Shown here one piece after another: positions 3,980 through 41,600 of a stretch of 64,000 nucleotides of DNA (its first letter is position 1; each line of letters begins with the position of its first letter). The notes beneath the pieces were generated by a model. It saw nothing but the letters and a program-made list of their open reading frames with translations. It made no database searches and was not told where the DNA came from. The stretch lies in the NCBI GenBank assembly GCA_040954595.2, contig CM082596.2, forward strand, positions 1-64,000. Direction: 5' to 3'. Position numbers and translations under genes: made by a program. Source of the DNA: Balanoglossus misakiensis (taxonomy: Eukaryota; Animalia; Hemichordata).

Positions 3980-6900
3980 GAATCTAGGCCAAATTGCCGG
4001 CGACTTCCTGTGAATCCGGGCCAAGTTGCGGCGACTTCCGGTCGTAACGGTGCGGTGAATCTGGGCCAAGTTGCCGGCGACTTCCGGTGGTAACGGTGCG
4101 GTGAATCTGGGCCAAGTTGATGGCGACTTCCTGTGAATCTGGGCCAAGTTGCCGGCGACTTCCGGTGGTAACAGCGCGGTGAAACTAGGCCAAGTTGCCG
4201 GCGACTTCCTGTCGTAACGTCGCGGTGAATATGGGCAAAGTTGCCGGCGACTTCCGGTCGTAACGGCGCGGTGAATCTGGGCCAAGTTGCCGTCGACTTC
4301 CGGTGGTAACGGCGCGGTGAATCTGGGCCAAGTTGCGGAGACTTCCGGTCGTAACGGCGCGGTGAATCCGGGCGAAGTTGCAGGCGACTTTCGGTCTTAA
4401 CGGCGCGGTGAATCTGGGCCAAGTTGCCGGCGACTTCCGGTCGTAACGGCGCGGTGAATCTAGGCCAAATGTCCGGCGACTTCCTGTGAATCCGGGCCAA
4501 GTTGCGGCGACTTCTGGTCGTAACGGTGCGGTGAATCTGGGCCAAGTTGCCGGCGACTTCCGGTGGTAACGGCGCGGTGGATCTGGGCAAAGTTGCCGGC
4601 GACTTCCTGTGAATCTGGGCCAAGTTGCCGTCGACTTCCGGTGGTAACGGCGCGGTGAATCTGGGCCAAGTTGCGGCGACTTCCGGTCGTAACGGCGCGG
4701 TGAATCCGGGCGAAGTTGCTGGCGACTTCCGGTCGTAACGGCGCGGTGAATCCCGGCCAAGTCGCCGGCAACTTCCGGTCGTAACGGTGCAGTGAATCTG
4801 GGCCAAGTTGCCGGCGACTTCCGGTGGTAACGGCGCGGTGGATCTGGGCCAAGTTGATGGCGACTTCCGGTGGTAACGGCGCGGTGAATCTGGGCCAAGT
4901 TGCGGCGACTTCCGGTCGTAACGGCGCGGTGAATCCGGGCGAAGTTGCTGGCGACATTCGGTCGTAACGGCGCGGTGAATCTGGGCCAAGTTGCCGGCGA
5001 CTTCCGGTCGTAATGGCGTGGTGAATCTGGGCCAAGTTGCCGGCGACTTCCTGTGGTAACGGCGCGGTGAATCTGGGCCAAGTTGATGGCGACTTCCTTT
5101 GAATCTGGGCCAAGTTGCCGGCGACTTCCTGTGAATCCGGGCCAAGTTGCGGGGACTTCCGGTCGTAACGGCGCGGTGAATCTGGGCCAAGTTGCTGGCG
5201 ACTTCCGGTGGTAACGGCGCGGTGAATCTGGGCCAAGTTGCCGGCGACTTCCTGTGGTAACGGCGCGGTGAATCTGGGCCAAGTTGATGGCGATTTCCTG
5301 TGAATCCGGGCCAAGTTGCCGGCGATTTCCGGTGGTAACGGCGCGGTGAAACGAGGCCAAGTTGCCGGCGACTTCCTGTCGTAACGGCGCGGTGAATATG
5401 GGCAGAGTTGCCGGCGACTTCCGATCGTAACGGCGCGGTGAATCTGGGCCAAGTTGCCGTCGAATTCCGGTGGTAACGGCGCGGTGAATCCGGGCCAAGT
5501 TGCGGCGACTTCCGGTCGTAACGGCGAGGTGAATCCGGGCGAAGTTGCTGGCGACTTTTGGTCGTAATGGCGTGGTGAATCTGGGCCAAGTTGCCGGCGA
5601 CTTCCTGTGGTAACGGCGCGGTGAATCTGGGCCAAGTTGATGGCGACTTCCTGTGAATCCGGGCCAAGTTGCGGCGACTTCCGGTCGTGATGGCGCGGTG
5701 AATCCGGGCCAAGTTGCCGGCGACTTCCGGTCGTAACGGCGCGGTGAATCCCGGCCAAGTCGCCGGCGACTTCCGGTCGTAACGGCGCGGTGAATCTGGG
5801 CCAAGTTGCCGGCGACTTCCTGTGAATCCGGGCCAAGTTGCGGCGACTTCCGGTCGTAACGGCGCGGTGAATCTGGGCCAAGTTGCCGGCGACTTCCGGT
5901 GTTAACGGCGCGGTGAATCTTGGCCAAGTTGCTGGCGACTTCCGGTCGTAACGGCGTGGTGAATCTGGGCCAAGTTGCCGGCGACTTCCGGTCGTAACGG
6001 CGTGGTGAATCTGGGCCAAGTTGCCGGCGACTTCCGGTCGTAACGGCGCGGTGAATCTGGGCCAAGTTGCCGGCGACTTCATGTGGCCGGCGACTTCTGG
6101 TCGTAACGGCGCGGTGAATCTGGGCCAAGTTGCCGGCGACTAACGGTCGTAACGGCGCGGTGAATCTGGGCCAAGTTGATGGCGACTTCCTGTGAATCCG
6201 GGCCAAGTTGCCGGCGTATTCCGGTCGTAACGGCGTGGTGAATCTGGGCCAAGTGGCCGGCGACTTCCGGTCGTAACGGCGCGGTGAATCTGGGCCAAGT
6301 TGATGGCGACTTCCTATCGTAACGGCGCGGTGAAACTGGGCCAAGTTGCCGGTGACTTCCGGTCGTAATGGCGTGGTTAATCTGGGCCAAGTTGCCGGCG
6401 ACTTCCTGTCGTAAAGGCGCGGTGAATCTGGTCCAAGTTGCCGGCGACTTCCTGTGGTAAAGGCGCGGTGAATCTGGGCCAAGTTGATGGCGACTTCCTG
6501 TGAATCCGGGCCAAGTTGCGGCGACTTCCGTTCGTAACGGCGCGGTGAATCTGGGCCAAGTTGCCGGCGACTTCCTGTGGTAAAGGCGCGGTGAATCTGG
6601 GCCAAGTTGATGGCGACTTCCTGTGAATCCGGGCCAAGTTGCGGCGACTTCCGTTCGTAACAGCGCGGTGAATCTGGGCCAAGTTGCCGGCAACTTCCTG
6701 TGGTAACGGCGCGGTGATTCTGGGCCAAGTTGATGGCGACTTCCTGTGAATCTGGTCCAAGTTGCGGCGACTTCCGGTCGTAACGGCGCGGTGAATCTGG
6801 GCCAAGTTGCCGGCGACTTCCTGTGGTAACGGCGCGGTGAATCTGGGCCAAGTTGATGGCGACTTCCTGTGAATCTGGTCCAAGTTGCCGTCGACTTCCG

Positions 6901-8395
6901 GTCGTAACAGCGCGGTGAATCTGGGCCAAGTTGCCGGCAACTTCCTGTGGTAACGGCGCGGTGATTCTGGGCCAAGTTGATGGCGACTTCCTGTGAATCT
7001 GGTCCAAGTTGCGGCGACTTCCGGTCGTAACGGCGCGGTGAATCTGGGCCAAGTTGCCGGCGACTTCCTGTGGTAAAGGCGCGGTGAATCTGGGCCAAGT
7101 TGATGGCGACTTCCTGTGAATCCGGGCCAAGTTGCCGGCGACTTCCGGTCGTAACAGCGTGGTGAATCTGGGCCAAGTTGCCGGCAACTTCCTGTGGTAA
7201 CGGCGCGGTGATTCTGGGCCAAGTTGCCGGCGACTTCCGGTGGTAACGGCGCGGTGAATCTGGGCCAAGTTGATGGCGACTTCCTGTGAATCTGGTCCAA
7301 GTTGCCGTCGACTTCCGGTCGTAACAGCGCGGTGAATCTGGGCCAAGTTGCCGGCAACTTCCTGTGGTAACGGCGCGGTGATTCTGGGCCAAGTTGATGG
7401 CGACTTCCTGTGAATCCGGGCCAAGTTGCCGGCGACTTCCGGACGTAACGGCGCGGTGAATCCCGGCCAAGTGGCCGGCGACTTCCGGTCGTAACGGCGC
7501 GGTGAATCTGGGCCAGGTTGCCGGTGACTTCCGGTCGTAACGGCGCGGTGAATCTGGGCCAAGTTGCCGGCGACTTCCTGTGAATCCGGGCCAAGTTGCT
7601 GCGACTTCCGGTCGTAACGGTGCGGTGAATCTGGGCCAAGTTGCCGGCGACTTCCGGTGGTAACGGCACGGTGATTCTGGGCCAAGTTGATGGCGACTTC
7701 CTGTGAATCCGGGCCAAGTTGCCGGCGACTTCCGGTGGTAACGGCGCGTTGAAACTAGGCCAAGTTGCCGGCGACTTCCTGTCGTAACGGCGCGGTGAAT
7801 ATGGGCAAAGTTGCCGGCGACTTCCGGTCGTAACGGCGCGGTGAATCTGTGCCAAGTTGCCGTCGACTTCCGGTGGTAACGGCGCTGTGAATCCGGGCCA
7901 AGTTGCGGCGACTTCCGGTCGTAACGGCGCGGAGAATCTGGGCCAAGTTGATGGCGACTTCCCGTGAATCCGGGCCAAGTTGCCGGCGACTTCCGGTCGT
8001 AACGGCGCGGTGAATCCGGGCCAAGTTGCTGGCGACTTCCGGTCGGAACGGCGCAGTGAATCCGGGCCAAGTTGCGGCGACTTCCGGTCGTAACGGCGCG
8101 GTGAATCCCGGCCAAGTCGCCGGCGACTTCCGGTCGTAACGGCGCGGTGAATCTGGGCCAAGTTGCCGGCGACTTCCTGTGAATCCGGGCCAAGTTGCGG
8201 CGACTTCCGGTCGTAACGGCGCGGTGAATCTGGGCCAAGTTGCCGGCGACTTCCGGTGTTAACGGCGCGGTGAATCTTGGCCAAGTTGCTGGCGACTTCC
8301 GGTGGTAACGGCGCGGTGAATCTGGGCCAAGCTGCCGGCGACTTCCTGTCGTAACGGCGCGGTGAATCTGGACCAAGTTGCCGGCGATTTCCTGT
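3978..8395. repeat. 46-bp satellite with interspersed 32-bp truncated units (array 1)
   Basis: Consensus GTGAATCTGGGCCAAGTTGCCGGCGACTTCCGGTCGTAACGGCGCG; short variant GTGAATCTGGGCCAAGTTGATGGCGACTTCCT; many point variants. Confidence 0.96.
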
Positions 8396-9178
8396 CGTAA
8401 CGTCGCGGTCGAAGGGGTTGGGCATCAGGTTGGCCTCCACCTCCGGTCGTAACGTCGCGGTCGAAGGGGTTGGGCATCAGGTTGGCCTCCACCTCCGGTC
8501 GTAACGTCGCGGTCGAAGGGGTTGGGCATCAGGTTGGCCTCCACTTCCGGTCGTAACGTCGCGGTCGAAGGGGTTGGGCATCAGGTTGGCCTCCACTTCC
8601 GGTCGTAACGTCGCGGTCGAAGGGGTTGGGCATCCGGTTGCCCTGCACTTCCGGTCGTAACGTCGCGGTCGAAGGGGTTGGGCATCAGGTTGCCCTGCAC
8701 TTCCGGTCGTAACGTCGCGGTCGAAGGGGTTGGGCATCAGGTTGCCCTGCACTTCCGGTCGTAACGTCGCGGTCGAAGGGGTTGGGCATCAGGTTGCCCT
8801 CCACCTCCGGTCGTAACGTCGCGGTCGAAGGGGTTGGGCATCAGGTTGGCCTCCACCTCCGGTCGTAACGTCGCGGTCGAAGGGGTTGGGCATCAGGTTG
8901 GCCTCCACCTCCGGTCGTAACGTCGCGGTCGAAGGGGTTGGGCATCAGGTTGGCCTCCACCTCCGGTCGTAACGTCGCGGTCGAAGGGGTTGGGCATCAG
9001 GTTGGCCTCCACCTCCGGTCGTAACGTCGCGGTCGAAGGGGTTGGGCATCAGGTTGGCCTCCACCTCCGGTCGTAACGTCGCGGTTGAAGGGGTTGGGCA
9101 TCAGGTTGGCCTCCACCTCCGGTCGTAACGTCGCGGTCGAAGGGGTTGGGCATCAGGTTGGCCTCCACTTCCGGTCGT
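8394..9178. repeat. 52-bp satellite (array 1, ~15 copies)
   Basis: Unit CGTAACGTCGCGGTCGAAGGGGTTGGGCATCAGGTTGGCCTCCACCTCCGGT. Confidence 0.96.
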
Positions 9179-9240
9179 TGGGGTCAAGTGTCTGAGGCAA
9201 CGGCGGGGTGTAACGGGGCAGGTTTGGGGTCAAATGTCTG

Positions 9241-10739
9241 CCAAGTGGCCGGCGACTTCCGGTCGTAACGGCGCGGTGAATCTGGGCCAAGTTGATGGCG
9301 ACTTCCTATCGTAACGGCGCGGTGAAACTGGGCCAAGTTGCCGGTGACTTCCGGTCGTAACAGCGTGGTGAATCTGGGCCAAGTTGCCGGCAACTTCCTG
9401 TGGTAACGGCGCGGTGAATCTGGGCCAAGTTGCCGGCGACTTCCTGTGGTAACGGCGCGGTGAATCTGGGCCATGTTGATGGCGACTTCCTGTGAATCCG
9501 GGCCAAGTTGCCGGCGACTTCCGGTGGTAACTGCGCGGTGAAACCAGGCCAAGTTGCCGGCGACTTCCTGTCGTATCGGCGCGGTGAATATGGGCAAAGT
9601 TGCCGGCGACTTCCGGTCGTAACGGCGCGGTGAATCTGGGCCAAGTTGCCGGCGACTAACGGTCGTAACGGCGCGGTGAATCTGGGCCAAGTTGATGGCG
9701 ACTTCCTGTGAATCCGGGCCAAGTTGCCGGCGACTTCCGGACGTAACGGCGCGGTGAATCCCGGCCAAGTGGCCGGCGACTTCCGGTCGTAACGGCGCGG
9801 TGAATCTGGGCCAGGTTGCCGGTGACTTCCGGTCGTAACGGCGCGGTGAATCTGGGCCAAGTTGCCGGCGACTTCCTGTGAATCCGGGCCAAGTTGCTGC
9901 GACTTCCGGTCGTAACGGTGCGGTGAATCTGGGCCAAGTTGCTGGCGACTTCCGGTGGTAACGGCACGGTGATTCTGGGCCAAGTTGATGGCGACTTCCT
10001 GTGAATCCGGGCCAAGTTGCCGGCGACTTCCGGTGGTAACGGCGCGGTGAAACTAGGCCAAGTTGCCGGCGACTTCCTGTCGTAACGGCGCGGTGAATAT
10101 GGGCAAAGTTGCCGGCGACTTCCGGTCGTAACGGCGCGGTGAATCTGTGCCAAGTTGCCGTCGACTTCCGGTGGTAACGGCGCTGTGAATCCGGGCCAAG
10201 TTGCGGCGACTTCCGGTCGTAACGGCGCGGAGAATCTGGGCCAAGTTGATGGCGACTTCCCGTGAATCCGGGCCAAGTTGCCGGCGACTTCCGGTCGTAA
10301 CGGCGCGGTGAATCCGGGCCAAGTTGCTGGCGACTTCCGGTCGGAACGGCGCAGTGAATCCGGGCCAAGTTGCGGCGACTTCCGGTCGTAACGGCGCGGT
10401 GAATCCCGGCCAAGTCGCCGGCGACTTCCGGTCGTAACGGCGCGGTGAATCTGGGCCAAGTTGCCGGCGACTTCCGGTCGTAACGGCGCGGTGAATCTGG
10501 GCCAAGTTGCCGGCGACTTCCTGTGAATCCGGGCCAAGTTGCGGCGACTTCCGGTCGTAACGGCGCGGTGAATCTGGGCCAAGTTGCCGGCGACTTCCGG
10601 TGTTAACGGCGCGGTGAATCTTGGCCAAGTTGCTGGCGACTTCCGGTGGTAACGTCGCGGTGAATCTGGGCCAAGCTGCCGGCGACTTCCTGTCGTAACG
10701 GCGCGGTGAATCTGGACCAAGTTGCCGGCGATTTCCTGT
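9241..10739. repeat. 46/32-bp satellite (array 2)
   Basis: Same unit as 3978-8395. Diagnostic variants recur in the same order as at 6249 onward and 7390-8395. Confidence 0.95.
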
Positions 10740-11782
10740 CGTAACGTCGCGGTCGAAGGGGTTGGGCATCAGGTTGGCCTCCACCTCCGGTCGTAACGTC
10801 GCGGTCGAAGGGGTTGGGCATCAGGTTGGCCTCCACCTCCGGTCGTAACGTCGCGGTCGAAGGGGTTGGGCATCAGGTTGGCCTCCACTTCCGGTCGTAA
10901 CGTCGCGGTCGAAGGGGTTGGGCATCAGGTTGGCCTCCACTTCCGGTCGTAACGTCGCGGTCGAAGGGGTTGGGCATCAGGTTGGCCTCCACTTCCGGTC
11001 GTAACGTCGCGGTCGAAGGGGTTGGGCATCCGGTTGCCCTGCACTTCCGGTCGTAACGTCGCGGTCGAAGGGGTTGGGCATCAGGTTGCCCTGCACTTCC
11101 GGTCGTAACGTCGCGGTCGAAGGGGTTGGGCATCAGGTTGCCCTGCACTTCCGGTCGTAACGTCGCGGTCGAAGGGGTTGGGCATCAGGTTGCCCTCCAC
11201 CTCCGGTCGTAACGTCGCGGTCGAAGGGGTTGGGCATCAGGTTGGCCTCCACCTCCGGTCGTAACGTCGCGGTCGAAGGGGTTGGGCATCAGGTTGGCCT
11301 CCACCTCCGGTCGTAACGTCGCGGTCGAAGGGGTTGGGCATCAGGTTGGCCTCCACCTCCGGTCGTAACGTCGCGGTCGAAGGGGTTGGGCATCAGGTTG
11401 CCCTGCACCTCCGGTCGTAACGTCGCGGTCGAAGGGGTTGGGCATCAGGTTGGCCTCCACCTCCGGTCGTAACGTCGCGGTCGAAGGGGTTGGGCATCAG
11501 GTTGGCCTCCACCTCCGGTCGTAACGTCGCGGTCGAAGGGGTTGGGCATCAGGTTGGCCTCCACCTCCGGTCGTAACGTCGCGGTCGAAGGGGTTGGGCA
11601 TCAGGTTGGCCTCCACCTCCGGTCGTAACGTCGCGGTCGAAGGGGTTGGGCATCAGGTTGGCCTCCACCTCCGGTCGTAACGTCGCGGTTGAAGGGGTTG
11701 GGCATCAGGTTGGCCTCCACCTCCGGTCGTAACGTCGCGGTCGAAGGGGTTGGGCATCAGGTTGGCCTCCACTTCCGGTCGT
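10738..11782. repeat. 52-bp satellite (array 2, ~20 copies)
   Basis: Same unit and same order of variants (e.g. GTTGCCCTGCAC block) as 8394-9178. Confidence 0.96.
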
Positions 11783-12020
11783 TGGGGTCAAGTGTCTGAG
11801 GCAACGGCGGGGTGTAACGGGGCAGGTTTGGGGTCAAATGTCTGCAGCAACGGCAGGGTGGAAGGGGGCAGGGTTGGGGTCAAGTGTCTGTCACAATGGC
11901 AGGGTGGAACGGGGCAGGGTTGGGGTCAAGTGTCTGCCGCAACGGCGGGGTGGAACAGGTCAGGGTTGGGGTCAAGTGTCTGCCGCAACAGCGGGGTGTA
12001 ACGGGTCAGGGTTGGGGTCA
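11783..12020. repeat. ~48-bp G-rich minisatellite (~5 copies; 1.3 copies also at 9179-9240)
   Basis: GGGGTCAAGTGTCTG..CAACGGCGGGGTGGAACGGGGCAGGGTT repeated. Confidence 0.9.
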
Positions 12021-12023
12021 TAA

Positions 12024-12850
12024 ATGCATACATAGAGGACATTTCTGTACCCATACAATTCAAATTTATTAATTTTCCTGACCTTCACTATCAGGTTTTG
12101 GGAATGACAGGTAATTGAATTGAATTAAAATACAATACATAAACATATTTTCATCTGTGAACTTTTAACTGGTGAACAAATTGGAGCCCATTATTAAAAA
12201 GAGTTTCCCTGAGCCTGTTTATACCATTCCAGCCTAAGTATTAGTTGTTAGGGTAAGGGTTAGGGTAAGGGTTAAGGTTAGGGTTAGAGTTAGGGTTAGG
12301 GTTAGTGTTTGAGTGTGCTGGCTGAAATGGCACAAACAATTTCACAGATTGAATCAATTTGCTTTGACTGCAAAATTCACTGAACAAAGTTTGCTCTGTG
12401 CAAACTTGTGATTCTAAGAAATACTGTATCTATGGACATTTAGGCTACAGTTAGATAAGTAATACTGTGTCCTAATCTGAATCCTTCCTTATCATAACAT
12501 ATAACCAGTGGGCTCAAGGGAACATGTAAGGAAAGTCAATGTCATAGTCCCCACAGGATAAATAGATTAAACAGCAACATTCTCTGTTTTTTATCTTTTA
12601 GAGATTAATTTTGTTTGATACAGAATGATGAAGTTAAAAATCATTATATTTTAACACAGAAATCTAATGCAAGTATTCAATGTATACTTGACAACATTCA
12701 AAGCTCAAAAAGAGAGATTGTGACACTTTAATAGAAAACTGGACAGAAGACAATCTATAAGTTTTCTCTTCATTCTCATTATAAACTCCTAAAATGCTGA
12801 CTGACAATCTATGTCTTCTCTTTATCTGGCATTCAGACTTCATCTGCCAA
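12024..12850. repeat. Diverged direct repeat, copy A (paralog of 17056-18030)
   Basis: Colinear matches such as AATTTTCCTGACCTTCACT, TTGAATCAATTTG.TTTGACTGCA, ATGGACATTTAGGCTACAGTTA, CTGTGTCCTAATCTGAATCCTTC and GAAAACTGGACAGAA. Confidence 0.85.
12248..12305 (+). repeat. Degenerate interstitial (TTAGGG)n tract
   Basis: TTAGGG TAAGGG TTAGGG TAAGGG TTAAGG TTAGGG TTAGAG TTAGGG TTAGGG TTAG. Confidence 0.85.
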
Positions 12851-15800
12851 GATGCAAGTATTTCATTGGGTTGCTGGTAGACCAAGTCCTTGTCCATTTC
12901 TACCATCATCATCATTTGGAAAATCACCAGTCTTCACACTTCAGCTTGAGCTAAAAAAGAAACAGAAAAAATAGATTCGCGTTTAATGAATGAAGTGGGG
13001 ACACGTTTTATAGCATTGATTCATTCAGCTTAAGTTAAATTTGGATGTGTTCCAATACTACACACACTCTTAAAATATTGACTACAAACCTTTATATTTT
13101 CTTCATTTGAAAACCACATATGTTCATCTGCCATCATGCAAATAGTTTATGGGGTGATTGCAAGACCAAGTCCTTGTCCACTTCTAACAATGGCAACATT
13201 CAGATACACAACATCAGCCTGCACTCTTCGCCATATTCAAACAAAACAACAGAAAAATGTTATCCATGATTAATGAACAAATTGGCGAAAGATTGTATAA
13301 ATTGATTCAATTAGTTAAATTTAGATTTGTTCCAATACTATATACACTCTTAAAATGTTGACTGCAAACCTGTATGTTTTCTTTATTTGAAATCCAAATA
13401 TCTTCATCTGCCATCATGCAGAGTTTATTGGGTGAAAGCAAGACCTAGCCCTTGTCCACTGCTACCAATGGCAACATTCAGATACACAACATCAGCCTGC
13501 ACTCTTTGCCATATTCTAACAAAACAACAGAAACAAAATTATTCATGATCAATGAACAAAGTGGTGACATATTTTATAAAATTGATTCAATGAGTTAAGT
13601 TTGGATTTGTTTCAACACTATATACACTCTTAAAATGTTGACTGCAAACCTGTATGTGTTCTTTATTTGACATCCAAATATCTTCATCTGCCATCATGCA
13701 AGTAGTTTATTGGGTGACTGGAAGACCATGTCCATGTCCACTTCTACCAATGGAAACATTCAGATACACAACATCAGCCTGCACTCTTCGCCATATTCTA
13801 ACAAAACAACGGAAAAAAAAATATTCATGATCAATGAACAAAGTGGTGACATATTTTGTAAAATTGATTCAACGAGTTAAGTTTGGATTTGTTCAAACAC
13901 TATATATACTCTTAAAATGTTGACTGCAAACCTGTATGTGTTCTTTATTTCACATCCAAATATCTTCATCTGACATCATTCAAGTAGTTTATTGGGTGAC
14001 TGGGAAACCATGTCCTTGTCCACTTCTACCAATGGCAACATTCAGGTACACAACATCAGCCTGCACTCTTCGCCATATTCTAACAAAACAACAGAAAAAA
14101 AAATTATTCATGATCAATGAACAAAGTGGTGACATATTTTATAAAATTGATTCAATGAGTTAAGTTTGGATTTGTTCCAACACTGTATACACTCTTAAAA
14201 TGTTGACTGCAAACCTGTATGTTTTCTTTATTTGACATCCAAACATCTTCATCTGCCATAATGCAGAGTTTATTGAGTGAAAGCAAGACCAAGTCCTTGT
14301 CCACTTCTACCAATGGCAATATTCAGATACACAACATCAGCCTGCACTCTTCGCCATATTCTAACAAAAGAACAGAAAAATATTATCCATGATTAATGAA
14401 CAAATTGGCGAAAGATTGTATAAATTGATTCGATGAGTTAAATTTGGATTTGTTCCAATAATATATACACTCTTAAAATGTTGACTACAAACCTGTATGT
14501 TTTCTTTATTTGACATCCAAATATCTTCATCTGCCATCATGCAGGATGTTTATTGGCTGACTGCAAGACCAAGTCCTTGTCCAGTTCTACCGTTGGCACC
14601 ATTTAGAAATTAAACATCAGTCTTTATGCTTGACCTTGCTTCATCTCCCATCATGCAAGTACTTTATTGGCTGACTGGAAGACCATGTCCTTGTCCACTT
14701 CTACCATTGGCAACATTCAGATACACAACATCACCCTGAACTCTTCGCCATATTCTAACTAAACAACATAAAAAAAATTATTCATGATCAATGAACAAAG
14801 TGGTGACATATTTTATAAAATTGATTCAATGAGTTAAGTTTTGATTTGTTCCAACACTATATACACTCTTAAAATGTTGACTGCAAACCTGTATGTGTTC
14901 TTTATTTGACATCCAAATATCTTCACCTGCCATCATGCAAGTAGTTTATTGGGTGACTGGTAGACCATGTCCATGTCCACTTCTACCAATGGCAACATTC
15001 AGATACACAACATCAGCCTGCACTCTTTGCCATATTCTAACAAAACAACAGAAAAAAAATTATTCATGATCAATGAACAAAGTGGTGACATATTTTATAA
15101 AATTGATTCAATGAGTTGAGTTTGGATTTGTTCCAACACTATATACACTCTTAAAATGTTGACTGCAAACCTGTATGTTTTCTTTATTTGACATCCAAAT
15201 ATCTTCATCTGCCATCATGCAGAGTTTATTGAGTGAAAGCAAGACCAAGTCTTTGTCCACTTCTACCAATGGCAACATTCAGATACACAACATCAGCCTG
15301 CACTCTTCGCCATATGCTAACAAAAGAACAGAAAAATATTATACATGATTAATGAACAAATTGGCGAAAGATTGTATAAATTGATTCGATGAGTTAAATT
15401 TGGATTTGTTCCAATAATATATACACTCTTAAAATGTTGACTACAAACCTGTATGTTTTCTTTATTTGACATCCAAATATCTTCATCTGCCATCATGCAG
15501 GTTGTTTCTTGGCTGACTGCAAGACCAAGTCCTTGTCCACTTCTACCGTTGGCACCATTTAGAAATTAAACATCAGTCTTCATGCTTGACCTTGCTTCAT
15601 CTGCCATCATGCAAGTACTTTATTGGCTGACTGGAAGACCATGTCCTTGTCCACTTCTACCATTGGCAACATTCAGATACACAACATCACCCTGCACTCT
15701 TCGCCATATTCTAACAAAACAACAGAAAAAAAAATAGTCATGATCAATGAAGAAAGTGGTGACATATTTTATAAAATTGATTCAATGAGTTAAGCTTGGA

Positions 15801-16640
15801 TTTGTTCCAACACTATATACACTCTTAAAATGTTGACTGCAAACCTGTATGTGTTCTTTATTTGACATCCAAATATCTTCATCTGCCATCATGCAAGTCG
15901 TTTATTAGGTGACTGGAAGACCATGTCCATGTCCACTTCTACCAATGGCAACATTCAGATACACAACATCAGCCTGAACTCTTTGCCATATTCTAACAAA
16001 ACAACAGAAAAAAAATTATTCATGATCAATGAACAAAGTGGTGACATATTTTATAAAATTGATTCAATGAGTTGAGTTTGGATTTGTTCCAACACTATAT
16101 ACACTCTTAAAATGTTGACTGCAAACCTGTATGTTTTCTTTATTTGACATCCAAATATCTTCATCTGCCATCATGCAAGTAGTTTATTGGGTGACTGGGA
16201 AACCAAGTCCTTGTCCACTTCTACCAATGGCAACATTCAGATACACAACATCAGCCTGCACTCTTCGCCATATTCTAACAAAACAACGGAAAAAACATGA
16301 TTCATGATCAATGAAGAAAGTGGTGACATATTTTATAAAATTGATTCAATGTGTTAAGTTTGGATTTGTTCCAATACTATAAACACTCTTAAAATGTTGA
16401 CTGCAAACCTGTATGTTTTCTTTATTTGATATCCAAATATCTTCATCTGCCATCATACAAGTAGTTTATTGGGTGACTGGGAAACCAAGTCCTTGTCCAC
16501 TTCTACCGTTGTTGGCACCATTTAGAAATTAACATCAGTCTTCATGCTTGAACTTGCTTCATCTGCCATCATGCAAGTACTTTATTGGCTGACTGGAAGA
16601 CCAAGTCCTTGTCCACTTCTACTATTGGCATCATTTGGAA
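12830..16640. repeat. ~281-bp AT-rich tandem array (~13 units) with ~957-bp higher-order period
   Basis: TCTTCATCTGCCATCATGC recurs at 13401, 13681 and onward. An extra ~115-bp sub-unit appears every third unit (~14640, ~15595, ~16555). Confidence 0.93.
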
Positions 16641-19030: not shown

Positions 19031-19538
19031 AAGGAAAGTTTTTTTCCTTACGAATTCAAACGATGGTACCTTTCTACAGTGTTCAGCAGCGTTGCTTTTT
19101 TCATGCTATCATGGGAGTGGGAAAAGACAGAAGATTTTCAATTATGAAATAAGTTAAGTATTCCCGTCAGTTTTAATTTTGAAAGAAATGTCACCATATA
19201 ATAGAACCCACAAGAATACAGAGTAATATAATGTGACACCTAATATTAATACGCAAATGATTAAACAGTTTCAACACTAACCAATTGCCGCGCTGGTCGG
19301 AAGAGTCAAATCCAGTTCTGCGCGATGTTTTGAAACCAAAAAACTAGCGAAGTTTCGAAATTGAAGGCGGATTTTGATACACGCAAACATGCAGTAATAA
19401 ACGGGCTAGAAAATGTGCGCAAACTCCGAAAAATCTCCCCTAACATCATTTATTGAACTTGCCCCCAGCATTCCAACTTCAATCAATATTACCGCAACAG
19501 CTTCTAGTTTTCTCTCGACTACATACCACTTGTTCTCC

Positions 19539-20236
19539 AACCAGACAAAAAAAAACTAACGAAAAGGCGATTTATTTGGTGCAAGTTTTGAAAACCGAAA
19601 GCACTTGGGCGTCCGCGCCACGTTGCAAGCGGAAAATCATGTCGCAACTTGGAACAATAGCGAGTACTCCGACTACTCTCTCTCAAAAGATTGGCTAAAA
19701 TTATTACGGAGTTCTTCACCTTCCCCAACTAGGGTCGAAAAGTCACAGCGGTAATTGTAGAAAATACCGGCTGCTTACCTGGTAGATACTACGTTTTTTA
19801 TCTTGGGTTGCGGGCTGTAGAGATTCCCGTAGCTTGTCAGGCAAAATCATGTAGGCTGTTGTTCTTTTGATAGTCCGGGTCGTTCTGCGCTATTTGCGTT
19901 TAAACCCGTGGATGAGCTAGTAGCACAGGTGCTAACCAGAAAATATAACGAATAGGCGATTTATTTGGTGCAAGTGTTGAAAACCGAAAGCACTTGGGCG
20001 TCCGCGCCACGTTGCAAGCGGAAAATCATGTCGCAACTTGGAACAATAGCGAGTACTCCGACTACTCTCTCTCGAAAAATTGGCTAAAATTATTACGGAA
20101 GTCTTCACCTTTCCCAACTAGGGTCGAAAAGTCACAGCGGTAATCGTAGAAAATACCGGCTGCTTACCTGGTAGATACTACGTTTTTTATCTTGGGTTGC
20201 GGGCTGTAGAGATTCCCGTAGCTTGTCAGGCAAAAA
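19539..20236. repeat. Direct duplication of a ~300-bp CpG-rich segment (19539-19847 and 19934-20236)
   Basis: Near-identical copies offset by ~389 bp. Each contains a minus-strand donor CCAG|GTAAGC (exon ends 19779 and 20168). Confidence 0.92.
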
Positions 20237-20296
20237 CCTCTTAGTTGTTCTGCACGCTGTTGCTCTTGTAAGACTCTACGTTGGCATTGTGGGCCC

Positions 20297-23677: not shown

Positions 23678-26600
23678 CTAAATGGAAACAAAATACAAAT
23701 GTATGTTAAAGCATCACAGACACTTTGATCATGTTTGCTCAGAATTCTTATATATATATTGGTTATATTTGGACTTACACTGATCTATTTCCAACACATA
23801 CCCACAAGGGCATCTCCAGCATCAGATATATATAATTTATAAGATAATACATGTAGATGTATTATTTTCACAGAATACATTCCAATAACCCCCAAAGCTA
23901 ACAGTCAGAGAGATTGGATGAGCAGACACAGTTGCCAAAAAGTGAATTATTTTCATAACATGTTCATACATAATCATGAGAATGCTCCAGGACCCTAAAA
24001 ACCAAATTGTAAGGAAATTGGACAAACCATTTCATTTTACCACTAATAGCCATGCTAAAACAGTATTTTACGATTGCAAGATTGAGCTCTTATCCAATCA
24101 GAATGCATGGTGGATGATGGCATGATATAATATAATATAATTTTTCATATTACGTTTTGTCTTTGGCATTTAATATGTATATATTCTATTTTTGTCATCT
24201 TTTCTTGCCCTTTAAAAAATCAACAACAAAAAGGGGTCAGGTACGGCCCGATTTCATGCCCATAAACCTGGGAAGACCACGTGATCATAAACAAGATGGA
24301 TGCCTCCAATGTCCGTACATCAGTCAAGATTTATCCAGGCAGTTTATTTTGTTTCGTTTGTTGTAAAGTTGGAAATCAAATGATAAACATTCATGGAGGT
24401 GAAGGAGAGAACGGGAAATGAGTATCTTACAACAACTTATAAACATAACAACTTAATGCTCGTATTTATTAACCAATGAGAGCCATGTTTACAATAGGTC
24501 GTGCCTGACACTTTCCCTTTAGCGTAGCGCAGCCAGAGTTGGGATTGGGGCAGGGAACCAGACTATTGAAATTTCTCCGAAGCATGCTTTATAGCAAATT
24601 TAGTCTTGATTTTACATGTATAAAGTAGTCTACCTGGGTTTTCCTTCTCTGTATGAAGGCTGTAAGTCTGATAGTGTCAAGTCTGGATAAGCTGGCAACA
24701 TCCGTTGACGTAGTACTAGCTGTCTGTATCCATGGGTTTTGAAGGCAACTTGTAGCAGATAGCCTTTCACTGTTGAAAAAAAAAGTAATTATCCAAGTGA
24801 AATGTCACAAAAAGATTTTATGCATGTACATATGTGTTTTAAACTGATGATTATTTGCTCATAGTATTCTCATACCACTTACATGGAGATTTCTCATTAA
24901 AAATTTAGGCAGCAGTATAAAAGGTATAAGATTACTCAAACTTAAAGTCAACATTCTACTTCAGCTGCTGTAACATTAGTTGCAGTTCAGTAGCTCTAGG
25001 GTTTTTTGCGTGTTGAGAAGCAAAACCAGAGCTACAGGTCCCACCAATCCAAATGTGTTTAGTTTGTCAAACATTAGGGAGCTAAATTCACGGCTGTCTT
25101 TGGTCGTTTTACAGCATATCTAATCTTTTTTATGTCAAGGATGCCAAGTTATATCATTGTTTTAAAAGTTTTCGTGGGTATGTGGTTGACCTCTCACCAA
25201 CTTACCTTTTTATTTATTTTATTTCATTTTTGATTCTAGCTGCATGTACACATAGTTTTATTTCTAAATGCACATGGGTGTGCTTATCAAAGATGCCCAT
25301 CAACTAGATGGAAGCCTGCAGTCGGGTAAAAATGTGAGAATATGACATCACCATTCAAACACAGCATCCACTACAGTTGGTGAGAAATCAACCATTGGCC
25401 TACAAAAACTTGTAAAACGACATTGAATTGGACTTTTAACCTGGCATTCTTGACAGGGTAGGTGCATAATTGGATCGGAAGGTGAACCAACATAAAAAAA
25501 GAAGGTAAGATTTGCAGGAGAATGTCCCCTGATGGCACCGACCTCCATGGCGTTCAGCCCACAGTGTATTTTCAGTTCAGTTGGTTCTGTAGCTCTGGTT
25601 TTGCCGTCGCAAACACAAACAAAACCAAAAGCTACTGAACTGCACCTACTACAACATATGCATTTCGTGTTCCTTTGACTCATAATTTGTTAACCTTTAC
25701 TATATTAATAAAATATGACCAGAAATAATTGTATCAGTTTCAGTGTTTATGTACGTAAAAGGCAAACAAGTTACTAATGATGTATCAACGAAATCTCAAC
25801 AAACCTTGGATCTTCTTTAAGCAGCGCTGATATGAAATTTCTGGCTTCTTGGCTGATATTGGTGAAGTATTCATGTGGAAAGCTGAAGTCAACCTTGGCA
25901 ATGTTGACACAGGTTTCTTCCACACTTTCATCAAGGAATGGTGAAACTCCACTCAGCCTATAATTATTAAGTTCATGTCAAATCATTTTACAAGAAATTG
26001 ATTGTTTCTTCATTTACAGGGAAAATTAATTGAGTGTCCGGTTTTGATTTCTGGGTTTGACAACTTTCTTTATCGCTGGCCAGTACAGAAGTCAAACATT
26101 GTAGCAAGTTGAATTCCAAAGGGAGCGTACGCATATTGTCTCTGCAATCCATCGCTTCACTGCACACGTACGCACAACCAGACTTCGCACGCAATTTGTT
26201 TTTAAACTTTCATGCTTTTTTAATAAACCTTCAAACGTTGAACAAGAAAATTCCAGTGGTAGTTCATGTTAAACAGTTGAGTTGTGACCGATAATAAACT
26301 GAGTATACAGACGCCATGAAAAGAAATGGAAGTTGAACTTCCACATTGTCCACCCGCATGACAAAGTACAACGCTTTCCAAACGCTGAACTCAAAACAAT
26401 CAACATGACTGAACTTTAAATCGTATCATGACTGCCGATGTTTCAGATTACTATTCATCTACTGTTATATAACCAGTGTTTCCGTCAAATATTTTGCTGT
26501 ATCTTGGGGCAAGTGATTTCCCTGACGTCATCATATACAGCGACAGACAGTGTGGCATGAAGGAGACCGCGAAATCGGTCTGCTTTCAAGAGTTTTTTTA

Positions 26601-29600
26601 CTTTACCGAAACAGTGTTCGACGGGGTTCAGATCGGGAGAATATGCCGGAGTGAAAGTGTTATCCATTCCAAGAGTTTCCAACCAGTTTGGGAGAATCAG
26701 TTCGCCTTCGTGGTGATGTATCGGAGCACTGTCAGCAATCACGATGTCACCTTGTTTCTTAAAGTCCTTCGTTCGCCTTTGGGCTTTCTTCATCCCGCAA
26801 ACCCAGTTTTGAACTGGGTGTTTGTAGTTTTGCAACGGCGTTCAGCAACATTCTCCGGTGAACATCACTAACTTTACACGTGAACTTCTCCAGATCTCTT
26901 GGTTTCAGAAATTTCATATGAGTTGTGTTCACAAAATCCAACCGACGAAAATTGCTGGCATATTTTTCAAGCATTGGATCAATATTTCGAAGAAAGTCTT
27001 CAACATCAACCGAACTTACTCTGGGTGTGTTCATTTTGCGGGAACTTGCAGGTACTGTTTACGCACGTCGCGGCCAACTTTCCAGTTTCCGCCTTCTTGG
27101 CACAATATTTGCATAAAAGTATCGACTTTTCTTCGCCAGAGATCGACTATTTTTTATGAGGGGTATGGGCCGCGAGCGTACATTCTCACACTTGCATTTG
27201 TTACTCATCTTGTCGGAAGAGTTTGCAAAATTTGGAGAACTAGTCAATATTTTCCAAAAATTCACCAAATATTAGGCCACCAAGATTACTCGCGTAATAT
27301 TGAACGTTTCAATGAAAGAAAAACGATGGGTATGGCTCTCTCTGCTGGTTTGGTTTCTTCCATTGCAGCATGTCCATGATTGCAGTCAACAATTCTGATG
27401 AGTGAGAGCGCCAAAATGTTTCAATCAAAGGTAGGCAATTTCAACATGGACATTCGTTGAGTAGAGATCTGCGAACACTTTTTTTGTCTGAACTTGAAGA
27501 AAATGGAGCAGACAAAAATACAGGATATATTCCAAGGGGTACTTTAGCATCTGTCAGCAAAAAGTTCAAGTTGGATGACCGAGGTATATTCTCTCTATCT
27601 GAACCCCGTCGAACACTGTCAGTAAAGTGAAAGACTCCTTCATGCCAACCTGTCTGTCGCTGTATATGATGCCGTCAGGGAAATCACTTGCCCCAAGATA
27701 CATGTACAGCAAAATATTTGACGGAAACTGGCTATATAATAGTAGATGAATAATCTGAAACATCGGCAGTCATGATACGATTTAAAGTTCAGTAATGTTG
27801 ATTGTTTTGAGTTCAGCGTTGTCTAACCCTGCGTACAGGTCTGTGTGTTCCCGGCGTTACACGGTGTAACGCCGGGAACACACAGACCTGTACGCAGAGC
27901 TATACTTTGTCATGCGGGTGGACAATGTGGAAGTTCAACTTCCATTTCTTTCCATGGCGTCTGTATACTCAGTTTATTATCAGTCACAAATTAACTATTT
28001 AACATGAACTACCACTGGAATTTTCTTGTTCAACGTTTGAAGGTTTATTTTAAAAAAAAGCATGAAAGTTTAAAAACAAATTGCGTGCGAAGTCTGGTTG
28101 TGCGTACGTGTGCAGTGAAGCGATGGATTGCAGAGACAATATGCGTACGCTCCCTTTGGAATTCAACTTGCTACAATGTTTGACTTCTGTACTGGCCAGC
28201 GATAAAGAAAGTTGTCAAACCCAGAAATCAAAACCGGACACTCAATTAATTTTCCCTGTAGCTTATTTTTTGTCAACGACTTCAAAGAATTCATAAGCTC
28301 AAAGTCTCTCCATTTCCGAAGAGTTTCCCCATTTTTCAATGGTTTTCGAAGAGTAATGAGTAATTGAGATCCTAAATGTCAATTTTATGATTGTGCAGTA
28401 AACATGCCAGCTGTAGTCAGCGAACTTCAAACAATTTAATAATAATTTGATGATTGCATTTTCATTTACCCATGATATAATTTTTTTGAAAATGTGTTCT
28501 CATTGCAAGGATTTTTTAAAAGAAATAACAAAACATTCCAAGAATATAAAAACTGTGTTCTTCATTCAAAGAATCTCAAAGGAATTAATTTTGGAGTCAG
28601 GCAACTGAATTCTATATCCAATTTACCAGTATCCCACATTTTTCAACAGTTCCAATAAGTCTTTTTTTTTGCAACAACATGTATCAACTATGCTAAGGTG
28701 AGTTCTAAATAAAATGGACTGACATGAATAAAAGATAGTACATTTAATACATACATGACATATGCCAAAACACCCAGGCTCCTATGGAAAAACAGTAAAG
28801 TAAGTCAGAATCAATTGAAAATCCAACAGTGATGGTTAAACATCAGGGCGGTAATAGAGCATCCACAACAGATAGTCTGGGTCACCGAGACTAAGTATTG
28901 GCTAATTTTGTTTTAGCGTTGTCAATCATTAATTAATGACCCTATTAAATATGTTTACAATATTATATCCAATGTACAATGCGTGATGAGCAGAATATTG
29001 ATATACTAATTTTGTTACACATTGTTGAAAACATCTGTGAACTTACCAGATATCTGTGTTAAGACATACTGGATGACCATTAACAAGTTCAGGTGCAGCA
29101 AATTCAGGGCTTCCTACCAAACTATGTACATACATCTTAGTGGTGATATGTACAGCATCACCAAAATCTATCAGTTTGACTCTGCAACTGACATTATTGG
29201 CTTCGATCATGAAATTTTCTGGCTGCAAATGAAAGAAAAACCAAGAGTACCTGAATATATATGTAACTGATCTTAGCTTGCTATCAGAAAATGGCAGAAA
29301 AAATCTACAATAACCTCAAAAGGCAAAATATATTTCAAGTCAACTCTGATGACTTAAAGTAAAAATACTAACCTTGATATCCAGATTTACAATTCTACAG
29401 TTATGAATATACTGCAGAGCCTGTACAATCTGCTGTAGGTACCCAACTGCCATGCTTTCCGTGAAAAGGGGCTGACTAACAATGTAATCAAACAGTCTGC
29501 CATTGGGAATCCTGCAAAATAGAAGAAAATACACTTTAAATATGTCTCTGATGTTACCTGCAGGAAAATATTCATTTTGTTTTTAGAACATCTCGCACCA

Positions 29601-38600: not shown

Positions 38601-41600
38601 CCATTTCTGATTGTCTTTGCATGGAGGTCAGTTGGAAAGAGATAGTATCATGTTAATAAAAGAGACAAAGAATGTGTGATTATGAAGACAATGACAGTGG
38701 ACACAAATAGTCTATTTGAATAGCACAGGTACAGACATGGCATTGGTTAGTCTGACACTCAGTTATCAGCTGTGCAGAAAATAGCAAAAATATTTACAGC
38801 ACTTCAGCGCTATTATCATTCAATTATATATTCAGTCTCCTTGAAAAACACAATATTAAATTCAGTTTTTTTCTTGTTTAAAGTTCTTACTTAAGAGTGC
38901 TGTTCATTTCGCCATCAAGTGGGACGTTTTCTTTTTCATGTCCAAGAACATATCCAGGGATCCATCCTTCGGCAGCTGGTGAGTCCTGATTGGCTGGTCT
39001 GTGCACTAAGTACATGCTATGTTGATTCGCTGCCAATATTTGTACAGTTTCACCCTTGAGCACAGTGATTTCATCTTCTTTGATGGCAGAATAGCTCATG
39101 ATAACACGGACGTATGTGGCATTGGGTTCACCCTGCAAAATAGACATGCATATATAATATAAATAGGCTTTATATTTGGTCTGTGTGTGTGTGTGTTGGC
39201 AATCATGCATTGAGTTGTCGGGCAGTCTCTTGACAAGATACTTCAAAAGAGTATTTTCACAGAAACTATACAATGCCATCAGGCTACATATTATTGATAG
39301 CTCTCAGAAATAGCCATGAAAAATATACTAAAATCTCGGTCCCCTGATAGTCCAAGCATGACAGAATGTTCCTTCTAGTAATGACTATTGCTTGCCTGTG
39401 TTGCTATACTCACTGTAGTGATATCTTCTTGTTCTGTACTGGAAGTGGATGTGTAACTGAGTCTATTTTCAAATGATGCACTGCTATGTCTCTTGACATC
39501 GTCATGTTCATGAGTCCTTATCCTCACTGGTGACGATTCAATCGAACTTCTTCCTGTTGGCTTTGGTGAGGAATCCCGTGGCACTGGCGATGGACATGGG
39601 CTCTCATTTTTAGGTTTCCTAAAGGACTGCATAATTCCATCAAAAAATTTCCTTTTAACAGTCGGTGAACTTGATGTTTTCTCCATTTGCAATGAGTTCT
39701 TTCTCACTTCACTACCTACTTTCAGTTTATCACTTCTACCAACTTTTTGATCCTCTGATGGCACAGACTTGCGTCCTTCTGCAAACTTTTTCCCCGAACC
39801 TGATGGTGGCAAAACTCCACTGTCTTTCAGTTCACTTATTGTAATTCCGGCTGGCATTGTCTGGTGCCGCCTGTGTTCCTTTTGTTTGTCCAGCTTACCA
39901 GTCCTTGCCGGTGATCCCTTTTTGTGCTGTTTTTTAGTTGCTCCTGATGAATGTGATTCTGTTTTCCTCAAGGCCCCAGTCTGTGTTGCAGGATGGGATT
40001 GTGACCTTGAATGTGACACCTGGGGCATTTCCAATCTGGAATAACATCAAAAACAACATCAATACATTTTTTGTACACTCTTCATACGCTGGAACAAGAA
40101 CAGTTTGCTTATGAGTGTAGAAATCGGTAAGTGGGAACACACACACACACACATGCACATACAAGTTATAAATTTTCCCATTTTTACCTAAATACACCAA
40201 TCACTTATACTCTGACATATTTCCGACTGCCAGACAACACCTTTGTGTATTCGATCAATCAATGAAGTGTACATAGCACCAAAATCCAAAACAATTGTTT
40301 TGCTCTATGACATGCAATTTGTTAAACCCCGGTGCGGGGTATAAAAGACCCCCCAAATCAGTGGCGAATCTTAATGCCGTTTGACTGACAACAGACAACA
40401 CCAACGATCTTGGCTCTATGAAAATCGACCCAAACAGGTCCAAGCATAAAGAATTACACCACACAACGACAGTAGTTGGCATTATAAACACACACAACAT
40501 AAAGTTATCGACGAAAAAGTACACGAGCTTTTGAAACAACGATGATTTTGGCAGAAATCTGGTTTGAGTGCTTTTCAGAAGCGTCCCTGGGAAACAATAA
40601 CCACGCCTTTCAAACAGCTGTCAATCGCGTAAAGTGTTCAATTATTTTCTATGTACATGAGATCAATTACACAGTCATTATGCACGACGACCACTCCCAA
40701 ATAAACAACTATACAAACACACTTTGGAACAGTATTTTTGAAACAGTGCGACGTTTCGATCCGACTACAACGGAGCTTGATCACGCAATGGTGTTAATTA
40801 TTCAGCGTTGATGTCTCAGCAACAGGCGGAATAATATGTCCGTAAATAGATGGTAGTTGGTATCCTTGGTCTCTGTTCATGATTGGCCTCCGTTGTTTGA
40901 TATAGATGGATTCTTTCACTTTTCGTTTCAACCAGTCCTGTTCCCTGGCTAGAACCTTGGTATTACGCCAGGAAACACTATGGCCGGTGGCGTTGCAGTG
41001 CTCCCCAATTCCAGTAGTCTTTTCCTTGTTGGTGTGTTCTTTGAAACGGACGCATAGTGGACGTTTGGACTCGCCGATGTATGCGTGACTACTGTCCTAG
41101 TCACAGGTGATGTGGTATATAGTACCACAAAGTTGTTCCTTGGGTGTTTTGTCCTTAGAGTGCACCAGGATGTTGCGCATGGTATTACTAGGCTGGTGGT
41201 ACATGTTGACGCCATATAACCGGAATACCCTGTGAAGTTGTTCTAATTAACACCATTGCGTGATCAAGCTCCGTTGTAGTCGGATTGAAACGTCGCACTG
41301 TTTCAAAAATACTGTTCCAAAGTGACTATATTTCACAATCTACTTCGATTCTTGGAACCATGAACAATATATTTTCCATACAAACACACGTTAATCCGAA
41401 CCCTGGTACTTTCCGCACCGGAGTTTAAACCAAACAGTATGCTCTGGTGAACACTAGGGTTTTTAGTTTTCTTTTGAAGATTCTAAATTTGTAGATTCAA
41501 TAATGTCAAGTGATAACACATTCCACCGTTTAGTATACAGTATATTTCACATACACACACAGAACCTTACCCAAGTCCCCAGCTGTTCCTACTTCCGCCT

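What the first reader, a model, noticed from the sequence alone, without database searches (positions are those of the whole stretch)
26017..28258. Tc1/mariner-superfamily (D37E) transposon carrying a divergent SAM-domain cargo gene
Seen: TA duplication, CAGGG termini and two head-to-head genes ~360 bp apart. A transposase remnant runs on + from 27398 (paired-like HTH start, large deletion, then LNPVEH). ORF2 runs on - from 27034, and its first ~70 aa fit a SAM domain. The catalytic spacing D(37)E is read from the fragment in the left arm. Established: typical Tc1/mariner elements encode only a transposase, and SAM domains polymerise (Polyhomeotic, TEL) or bind RNA (Smaug/Vts1). From memory, two-ORF long-TIR DD37E elements (L31) have been reported in marine invertebrates, so novelty must be checked. 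Inference: ORF2 is an accessory factor acting in anti-silencing, chromatin targeting or transpososome oligomerisation, co-expressed from a bidirectional promoter.
Basis: partly seen in the sequence, partly recalled or inferred. Interest (0 to 1): 0.85.

Follow-up and report, generated by a model that had tools for sequence, protein, structure and literature searches.

The report
Broken two-gene transposon with SAM helper
A broken, repeated jumping gene in an animal intron carries the front end of a second gene with a SAM domain, whose full-length relatives in bivalves add a predicted coiled coil and zinc-binding tip; it is likely a member of the published two-gene L31 family, and the second protein likely helps the element stay active, which is untested.

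Summary
The feature is real. A 2242-bp element (26017-28258) with TA duplication and CAGGG ends lies in an intron of a Trio/Kalirin-type gene. It holds a DDE transposase piece with D(37)E spacing and a head-to-head ORF2 that passes Pfam SAM_2. (1) ORF2 is cut at codon 91: another contig of the same species continues it, and relatives are 375-489 aa (SAM, predicted coiled-coil hairpin with a Cys/His tip, helical tail, often a basic NLS-like motif). (2) The long left arm is likely an inverted copy of the right end, which replaced ORF2's 3' part, rather than a native long repeat. This derivative is repeated in the genome and cannot encode a working transposase. Named ORF2 relatives are from Pinctada, Pecten and Mytilus, multi-copy in two of them, overlapping the published host list of DD37E(L31). 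L31 membership is likely (about 75%) but was not tested by phylogeny; the two-ORF L31 papers are recalled only and not held. ORF2 was not shown beside a transposase in any other genome. ORF2's role is inferred. Verdict: likely a new member of a known kind, with a useful domain anatomy for its helper.

The parts
26015..26016 (.). left TA target-site duplication
26017..28258 (.). whole non-autonomous element, 2242 bp, ends CAGGG...CCCTG
   Evidence: joined to both flanks in run X1 contigs
26017..26484 (-). non-coding part of the left arm; inverted counterpart of the right end (outer 205 bp identical)
26485..26761 (-). 3' piece of the transposase inside the left arm: second D (26733-26731), E (26619-26617), stop at 26487-26485; first D absent
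   Evidence: DDE_3 E 6.4e-11; spacing 37; IS630 family model E 3.4e-11, below its cut-off
26759..27034 (-). ORF2, truncated at 26762; 91 codons, stop made by the junction
26822..27016 (-). SAM domain of ORF2 (residues 7-71)
   Evidence: Pfam SAM_2 above cut-off; SAM fold in the model of relative P0015
27035..27397 (.). 363-bp spacer between the two ATGs; inferred bidirectional promoter
   Evidence: geometry only; activity not tested
27398..27582 (+). 5' remnant of the transposase, about 60 codons, out of frame in this copy
   Evidence: no profile hit, so identity is inferred from position and from its join to the 3' piece
27583..28258 (+). right arm: decayed last part of the transposase (from the [12 protein letters not shown] motif) plus the non-coding end
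27821..27905 (.). separate 85-bp hairpin inserted in the right arm, a very high-copy repeat
   Evidence: inverted repeat I5; absent from the left arm; depth 57,588 and 206,945 with many different loose ends in X1 and X2
28259..28260 (.). right TA target-site duplication
25958..28754 (-). host intron in the kinase region of a Trio/Kalirin-type gene; 553 bp without the element
   Evidence: GT and AG ends and an in-frame join read; gene identity

Best explanation
This is a deleted, repeated copy of a two-gene cut-and-paste transposon of the IS630/Tc1/mariner group, likely the L31 family, that has no intact transposase and is likely moved by the enzyme of an intact partner elsewhere. The ancestor likely had ORF2 and the transposase pointing away from one shared promoter. 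In this lineage an inverted copy of the right end likely replaced the left end and the last three quarters of ORF2, and a deletion removed the middle of the transposase; two matching ends are all that such a copy would need. Full-length ORF2 is predicted to be a nuclear protein with an N-terminal SAM domain, a flexible linker, an antiparallel coiled-coil hairpin tipped by an eight-residue Cys/His (likely two-zinc) module, and a helical tail. My committed mechanism, about even odds, is that ORF2 self-associates through SAM and uses the zinc tip to hold the element's own DNA or RNA, building a scaffold that keeps the element expressed or helps assemble the transposition complex. The SAM-only stub in this copy is most likely a leftover.
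For: Shown: TSD, ends, DDE_3 and SAM_2 hits, D(37)E. Repeated: interior contig depth 366-430 against 59-64 for flank contigs in X1, and 1053-1763 against 175-190 in X2; contigs with other flanks joined to the ends (records 7 and 11). The ORF2/transposase junction and the internal deletion are bridged by these deep contigs. One X1 contig (471 bp, depth 22) matches 26762-26809 with no difference and then runs on in ORF2's frame into the start of the family's linker motif (translated by hand; motif in 31 of 92 stored family proteins). Family: 61 of 63 hits; 25 of 25 stored members of 250 aa or more carry the Cys/His module and 12 of 25 a basic NLS-like motif (some are cluster mates). Transposon-like copy pattern: Pinctada has three accessions, two identical and one 374 of 375 identical; Pecten has two at 460 of 468 plus a third at 207 of 430; one cluster has 14 members at 92-100% identity, 8 of them under 330 aa. 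The 4 of 30 clusters with a species name are all pteriomorph bivalves; the DD37E(L31) host list includes Pinctada, Mytilus and the scallop Mizuhopecten. Fold: SAM at Z 10.7, rmsd 2.2 A over 64 residues; two long helices flank the Cys/His module.
Against: No other locus with ORF2 next to a transposase was obtained, so the two-gene design is shown for this family only. No intact transposase was seen in X1 or X2 (2 loose ends were not shown and contigs drop rare variants). L31 placement has no tree behind it. The long-ORF2 contig overlaps the window by only 48 bp and only 30 further letters were shown. Depth is not a copy number, and X1/X2 are one sample that may be the window's source. ENA cluster mates may be alleles from different samples. 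Foldseek E-values for SAM were weak (0.068 at best) and the coiled-coil matches are generic. No expression or binding evidence.
Confidence: 0.7

Rival explanations
1. It is a two-gene DD37E lineage separate from L31 and not yet described; the 37 spacing is shared by chance with L31.
For: At least four separate ITm groups have DD37E (10.1101/656579), so spacing does not assign a family. No held paper mentions an ORF2 in L31.
Against: Named ORF2 relatives come from genera or families on the L31 host list. The fragment resembles IS630 (37% to ISRm2011-2), fitting L31's place among the minor basal families beside Tec. By recall, 2024 papers report ORF2 in nearly all full-length L31 elements.
Confidence: 0.15
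2. ORF2 is a host SAM gene, or a piece of one, captured by this one transposon family and carried as dead cargo.
For: Linkage to a transposase was not shown in other species. In the deep contigs ORF2 differences are not biased to silent ones: 2 of 6 in X1 (one is a stop at codon 83) and 1 of 4 in X2.
Against: Near-identical copies at several loci, many broken members and several divergent lineages per species are not what a host gene looks like. No Pfam family other than SAM describes the long members and no solved host protein shares the whole architecture. Lack of selection in a truncated derivative is expected under either reading.
Confidence: 0.08
3. ORF2 or its SAM-only stub restrains transposition, like the KP repressor made by deleted P elements (recalled): the stub would cap or poison oligomers of full-length ORF2.
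For: The derivative that spread keeps the start codon, the whole SAM domain and the spacer; the stop seen in X1 contigs lies after the SAM domain.
Against: One deletion fixed these borders before the spread, so their retention needs no selection; substitutions show no constraint (few sites); no evidence of expression.
Confidence: 0.1
4. The 630-bp arms are the element's native long TIRs, as in ciliate Tec elements, with gene ends inside them.
For: Tec, the sister group of L31, has TIRs of about 700 bp. The arms are shared by the repeated copies. How much of the 468 non-coding bases is native TIR is not known.
Against: The left arm holds 92 codons of transposase and cuts ORF2 in its linker, where another copy continues.
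Confidence: 0.07

Closest known systems
DD37E(L31) family of IS630/Tc1/mariner transposons (Puzakov et al. 2018 as cited in PMC7325037 and 10.1101/656579; 2024 papers on bivalve and hexacoral L31 recalled only)
   Same: D(37)E spacing, TA duplication, IS630-like catalytic region; ORF2 relatives in Pinctada, Mytilus and a scallop; by recall a second ORF of unknown function in nearly all full-length elements.
   Different: This copy is a fold-back derivative with a truncated ORF2. The host may be outside the listed range (unchecked note). Whether the L31 papers already name SAM and Cys/His modules in ORF2 could not be seen.
Tec and TBE elements of ciliates (PMC7325037, passage)
   Same: Multi-gene ITm elements in the same basal region of the tree; Tec has long TIRs; TBE has a zinc finger protein.
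   Different: DD34E, three ORFs; no SAM protein mentioned in the passage read.
Dici elements of Diutina and Mucor (PMC13469147, sections 8, 14, 15)
   Same: ITm elements with extra coding sequences; FUN-MUPI-2 has long inverted arms that contain transposase genes, a precedent for this fold-back shape.
   Different: DD34E, fungal, short TIRs, three CDSs with the transposase central.
DD37E/Mosquito, TRT and L18 (PMC10379824, passages)
   Same: 37-residue spacing, TA duplication.
   Different: Mosquito elements are about 1.3 kb with one ORF; TRT and L18 lie in or near Tc1; no second gene is described in the passages read.
Accessory proteins of other DNA transposons: VANC of VANDAL, Myb/SANT-like partner of Harbinger, TnpA of CACTA, KP of P elements (recalled)
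   Same: A second element-encoded protein that binds its own element or modulates the transposase; a model for how ORF2 may work.
   Different: No sequence or fold relation shown; none is recalled to use a SAM domain.

Membership tests
IS630/Tc1/mariner (ITm) | TA target-site duplication and terminal inverted repeats | tested here: met
IS630/Tc1/mariner (ITm) | DDE/D catalytic domain of the ITm type | tested here: met
   DDE_3 42.7 bits against cut-off 28.6; only the second D and the E survive
IS630/Tc1/mariner (ITm) | N-terminal PAIRED helix-turn-helix region | tested here: inconclusive
   58-aa remnant has no Pfam or NCBIfam hit and no meaningful PDB sequence hit
DD37E(L31) | 37 residues between the second D and E | tested here: met
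   shared with three other groups, so not sufficient
DD37E(L31) | transposase falls in the L31 clade, sister to Tec | not testable with these tools
   the alignment files of PMC7325037 cannot be read here; no full-length relative was retrieved
DD37E(L31) | second ORF of the L31 ORF2 kind in full-length elements (feature recalled, not read) | tested here: inconclusive
   a second ORF is present; no published ORF2 sequence to compare with
DD37E(L31) | hosts mainly bivalves and hexacorals | tested here: inconclusive
   4 of 30 ORF2 clusters have a species name, all bivalves, overlapping the list; this window's host is not established
DD37E/Mosquito (MS) | about 1.3 kb, one ORF, TIRs 19-203 bp | tested here: not met
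   two genes head to head against the description
DD37E/TRT and L18 | placement within or beside Tc1 | not tested
   no tree; only a weak match to Sleeping Beauty (19.6 bits) and a stronger one to IS630, from different searches
Tec / TBE / Dici | DD34E spacing | tested here: not met
   37 here against 34
SAM domain | profile score above the curated cut-off | tested here: met
   SAM_2 23 bits against 20.5; 19 of 63 hits match a SAM family at E 0.01 or better, 9 above a cut-off
SAM domain | five-helix SAM fold | tested here: met
   model of relative P0015 (49% identical in alignment A1): helices 18-77, pLDDT over 90; Z 10.7 to SAMD5; the window's own protein was not folded
Polymer-forming SAM (Polyhomeotic, TEL) or RNA-binding SAM (Smaug, Vts1) | head-to-tail polymer or RNA binding | not tested
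   no complex prediction was obtained; needs experiment

The most novel reading that the evidence does not exclude
A lineage of animal Tc1/mariner-type transposons has for a very long time carried its own SAM-polymer protein with a zinc-tipped coiled-coil arm that coats the element and blocks or mimics host SAM-based (Polycomb-type) silencing, and deleted copies like this one spread a SAM-only stub that caps those polymers, a built-in brake. Neither the anatomy nor the mechanism was found in the held literature.
Probability: 0.12. Interest if true: 0.8.

Novelty: new member of a known kind. Interest (0 to 1): 0.45.

Why it matters
Tc1/mariner elements are the textbook one-gene transposons, so a conserved second gene needs explaining. 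If this is L31, the second gene is already reported (recall) but its function is open. The anatomy found here (SAM, coiled-coil hairpin with a Cys/His tip, NLS-like tail) gives direct tests: oligomerisation, zinc and nucleic-acid binding, and transposition with and without ORF2, using near-identical full-length ORF2 genes in Pinctada. If the host is a hemichordate the family's range would extend to deuterostomes. The copy itself would also put a long perfect hairpin into a Trio/Kalirin pre-mRNA, a possible source of small RNAs against its own family.

Tried and rejected
No whole genome is held, so no genome-wide consensus or dN/dS. Word-indexed searches for longer relatives of ORF2 and of the transposase piece were blank; the HMMER search found the family, so those blanks were lack of sensitivity. 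From I dropped P0050 and P0053 (repeat proteins, DUF11 and SEA). Searches for DNA context: alignment A1 too diverse; ORF2 alignments blank in metagenome, viral and prokaryote collections; transposase piece blank in metagenomes and two short chance matches elsewhere, with no ORF2 near them. No motif-level scan of public collections for D(37)E transposases was made, which leaves linkage in other species open. ORF2 has no match in plasmids or among predicted viral structures. The C-terminal part has no specific fold match; this does not show a new fold, as the coiled coil fills the lists. Atlas searches: SAM-like clusters below 0.9, generic DDE_3 clusters; leads only. The SAM tree (68 rows, 88 columns; P0055 dropped as short, P0071-P0094 not given) leaves the window's ORF2 in no well-supported group and has no host SAM outgroup. 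No RNA holder listed; not evidence on expression. Runs X3 and X4 (another organism) hold only 157 bp of the end at depth 4.5; not taken as horizontal transfer. The sigma-70 scan of the spacer is not meaningful for an animal. The complex-prediction queue was full, so self-association has no verdict. The TACAGGG at 63792 is not another end. CpG observed/expected is near 1 in most of the element against 0.36 in the flanks; I read this as recent arrival, not as evidence of anti-silencing.
Full report
What is there. The element runs from 26017 to 28258 between two TA dinucleotides and begins and ends with CAGGG/CCCTG. The outer 205 bp of the arms are identical; further in they match at 144 of 151, 174 of 180 and 45 of 51 aligned bases, out to 26647 and 27583. 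No other copy lies in the window. It sits in an intron (25958-28754, minus strand) of a Trio/Kalirin-type gene: a DH exon matches Trio and Kalirin at E 1e-12, SH3_KALRN and I-set exons follow, and kinase-like exons lie on both sides and join in frame across the intron.

Coding pieces. On the minus strand, 26759-27034 encodes 91 aa with Pfam SAM_2 at residues 7-71 above the curated cut-off. Directly after it, 26761-26485 encodes the last 92 residues of a transposase (DDE_3, E 6.4e-11) with 37 residues between D and E; the first D is missing. The piece is IS630-like: NF033545 E 3.4e-11 but below that model's cut-off, 37% identical to ISRm2011-2 transposase in plasmids, and weakly like Sleeping Beauty. 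On the plus strand an ATG at 27398, 363 bp from ORF2's ATG, starts about 60 codons that then jump to a decayed copy of the same 3' end.

Other copies. No genome is held, but two runs of one sample of organism A (X1, X2) match both flanks almost perfectly and run into the element's ends; they may be the window's source and are not independent. Contigs over the interior are about six times deeper than flank contigs (366-430 against 59-64; 1053-1763 against 175-190), and two contigs join diverged ends to other flanks. Depth is not a copy number, but several copies are indicated. The deep contigs bridge both the ORF2/transposase junction and the internal deletion, so this rearranged form is what spread. 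They carry 7 bases after 27420 that this copy lacks. One X1 contig of 471 bp at depth 22 matches 26762-26809 exactly and then leaves the window's sequence; the 30 letters shown read on in ORF2's frame without a stop and end in L-K-P-R-Q, the start of the linker motif that follows SAM in 31 of 92 stored relatives (read by hand). So ORF2 is cut at 26762, its stop is a product of the junction, and the left arm is most simply an inverted copy of the right end. No contig continuing the transposase across its deletion was listed (2 loose ends not shown).

The ORF2 family. HMMER against 1.84 billion representatives gave 63 hits; 61 share the N-terminal SAM region and 2 were dropped as unrelated repeat proteins. 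A profile search added four more. Long members are 375-489 aa. All 25 stored members of 250 aa or more have a C-x2-C-H...H...C...C...C...H module, and 12 of the 25 have a basic NLS-like motif near the end (ten of the 25 belong to one 90% cluster). AlphaFold2 models of P0015 and P0074 give SAM, a disordered linker, two long helices flanking the Cys/His module, and a small helical tail. The SAM part aligns with SAMD5 at Z 10.7, rmsd 2.2 A over 64 residues; nearly all the Foldseek rows listed are named SAM-domain entries but none reaches E 0.001. The helices match antiparallel coiled coils generically and the tail has no specific match. Zinc binding is inferred from the residues.

Is the family transposon-borne? 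Of 30 clusters looked up, 4 have a species name: Pinctada imbricata, Pecten maximus (two clusters) and Mytilus coruscus. Pinctada has three accessions, two identical and one differing at 1 of 375 residues; Pecten has two at 460 of 468 on contigs of different length and a third at 207 of 430. One unnamed cluster has 14 members at 92-100% identity, 8 of them short. This is the pattern of a mobile gene, though unnamed members could be alleles. The direct test failed for lack of data: no locus with DNA context was recovered. Linkage of ORF2 to a transposase is therefore shown only for this family.

How it likely works. Shown: ends, TSD, repetition, truncation, domains. Inferred from established ITm biology: with no intact transposase, the copy is moved in trans by an enzyme that binds its two matching ends. 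Inferred from anatomy: full ORF2 is nuclear, self-associates through SAM and contacts nucleic acid through the Cys/His tip, acting as a scaffold that favours expression or transposition of its element. I give that role about even odds against a repressor role or none. The stub here shows no sign of constraint (2 of 6 differences silent in X1, 1 of 4 in X2; few sites). In the host pre-mRNA the arms are predicted to form 581 pairs with a 206-bp unbroken helix, which could feed editing or small-RNA pathways; not tested.

Comparison with what is known. PMC7325037 (passages; supplement list and passages of two files; the alignment files could not be read and bear on membership) lists DD37E(L31) as a minor family sister to Tec, with hosts Pinctada, Crassostrea, Modiolus, Mytilus, Bathymodiolus, Mizuhopecten, Exaiptasia, Acropora and Steinernema; it does not mention ORF2. 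10.1101/656579 (one passage) names four DD37E groups. PMC10379824 (passages) describes Mosquito as one-ORF. PMC13469147 (abstract, passages, sections 8, 14, 15) describes multi-CDS Dici elements and one with transposase genes inside long inverted arms. I recall 2024 papers by Puzakov, Puzakova and colleagues reporting an ORF2 of unknown function in nearly all full-length L31 elements of bivalves and hexacorals; they and the 2018 paper are not held, so I cannot say whether they name the SAM domain. Ten searches (listings only unless named above) showed no paper on a SAM protein in an ITm element; subscription journals are mostly missing from the library. Earlier notes from this scan describe fungal two-gene Tc1 elements with a Cys/His motif and SAM-like tail and suggest an acorn-worm host for this genome; both unchecked.

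Verdict. Real, correctly spotted, and probably L31 (about 75%). No defining L31 feature failed, but the decisive one, phylogeny, was not testable. The copy is a dead derivative; the value lies in the anatomy of the helper protein and the tests it suggests. Interest 0.45.

Noticed in passing
window 1-12020, 12247-12309, 12838-16507: GC-rich satellite blocks (59-bp unit x67.6 at 99% matches; 46- and 52-bp units), then 10.5 TTAGGG-type repeats, then a 282-bp satellite; looks subtelomeric.
   Followed up: no
window 24592-45713 (-): Exons of a Trio/Kalirin-type gene: DH, SH3, Ig, FN3-like and kinase.
   Followed up: partly
window 27821-27905: 85-bp hairpin repeat at extreme depth in runs X1 and X2 with many different flanks; likely a tiny MITE-like element.
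   Followed up: partly
window 24977-25648: Nested inverted repeats (I6, I8, I11) in the next intron; possibly another small element.
   Followed up: no
window 40797-41096 (-): Reading frame resembling the GIY-YIG end of a Penelope-type retroelement (recalled likeness; no Pfam hit).
   Followed up: partly
window 19522-20275 (-): Two similar stretches about 400 bp apart, seen as near-duplicate translations.
   Followed up: no
window 26015-26171: Runs X3 and X4 of another organism hold these 157 bp with no difference but at depth 4.5 and nothing else of the element; contamination or mixed sample is the simplest reading.
   Followed up: no
window 27089-27177: An X2 contig skips 87 bp of the spacer: a sub-variant of the family with a shorter putative promoter.
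   Followed up: no
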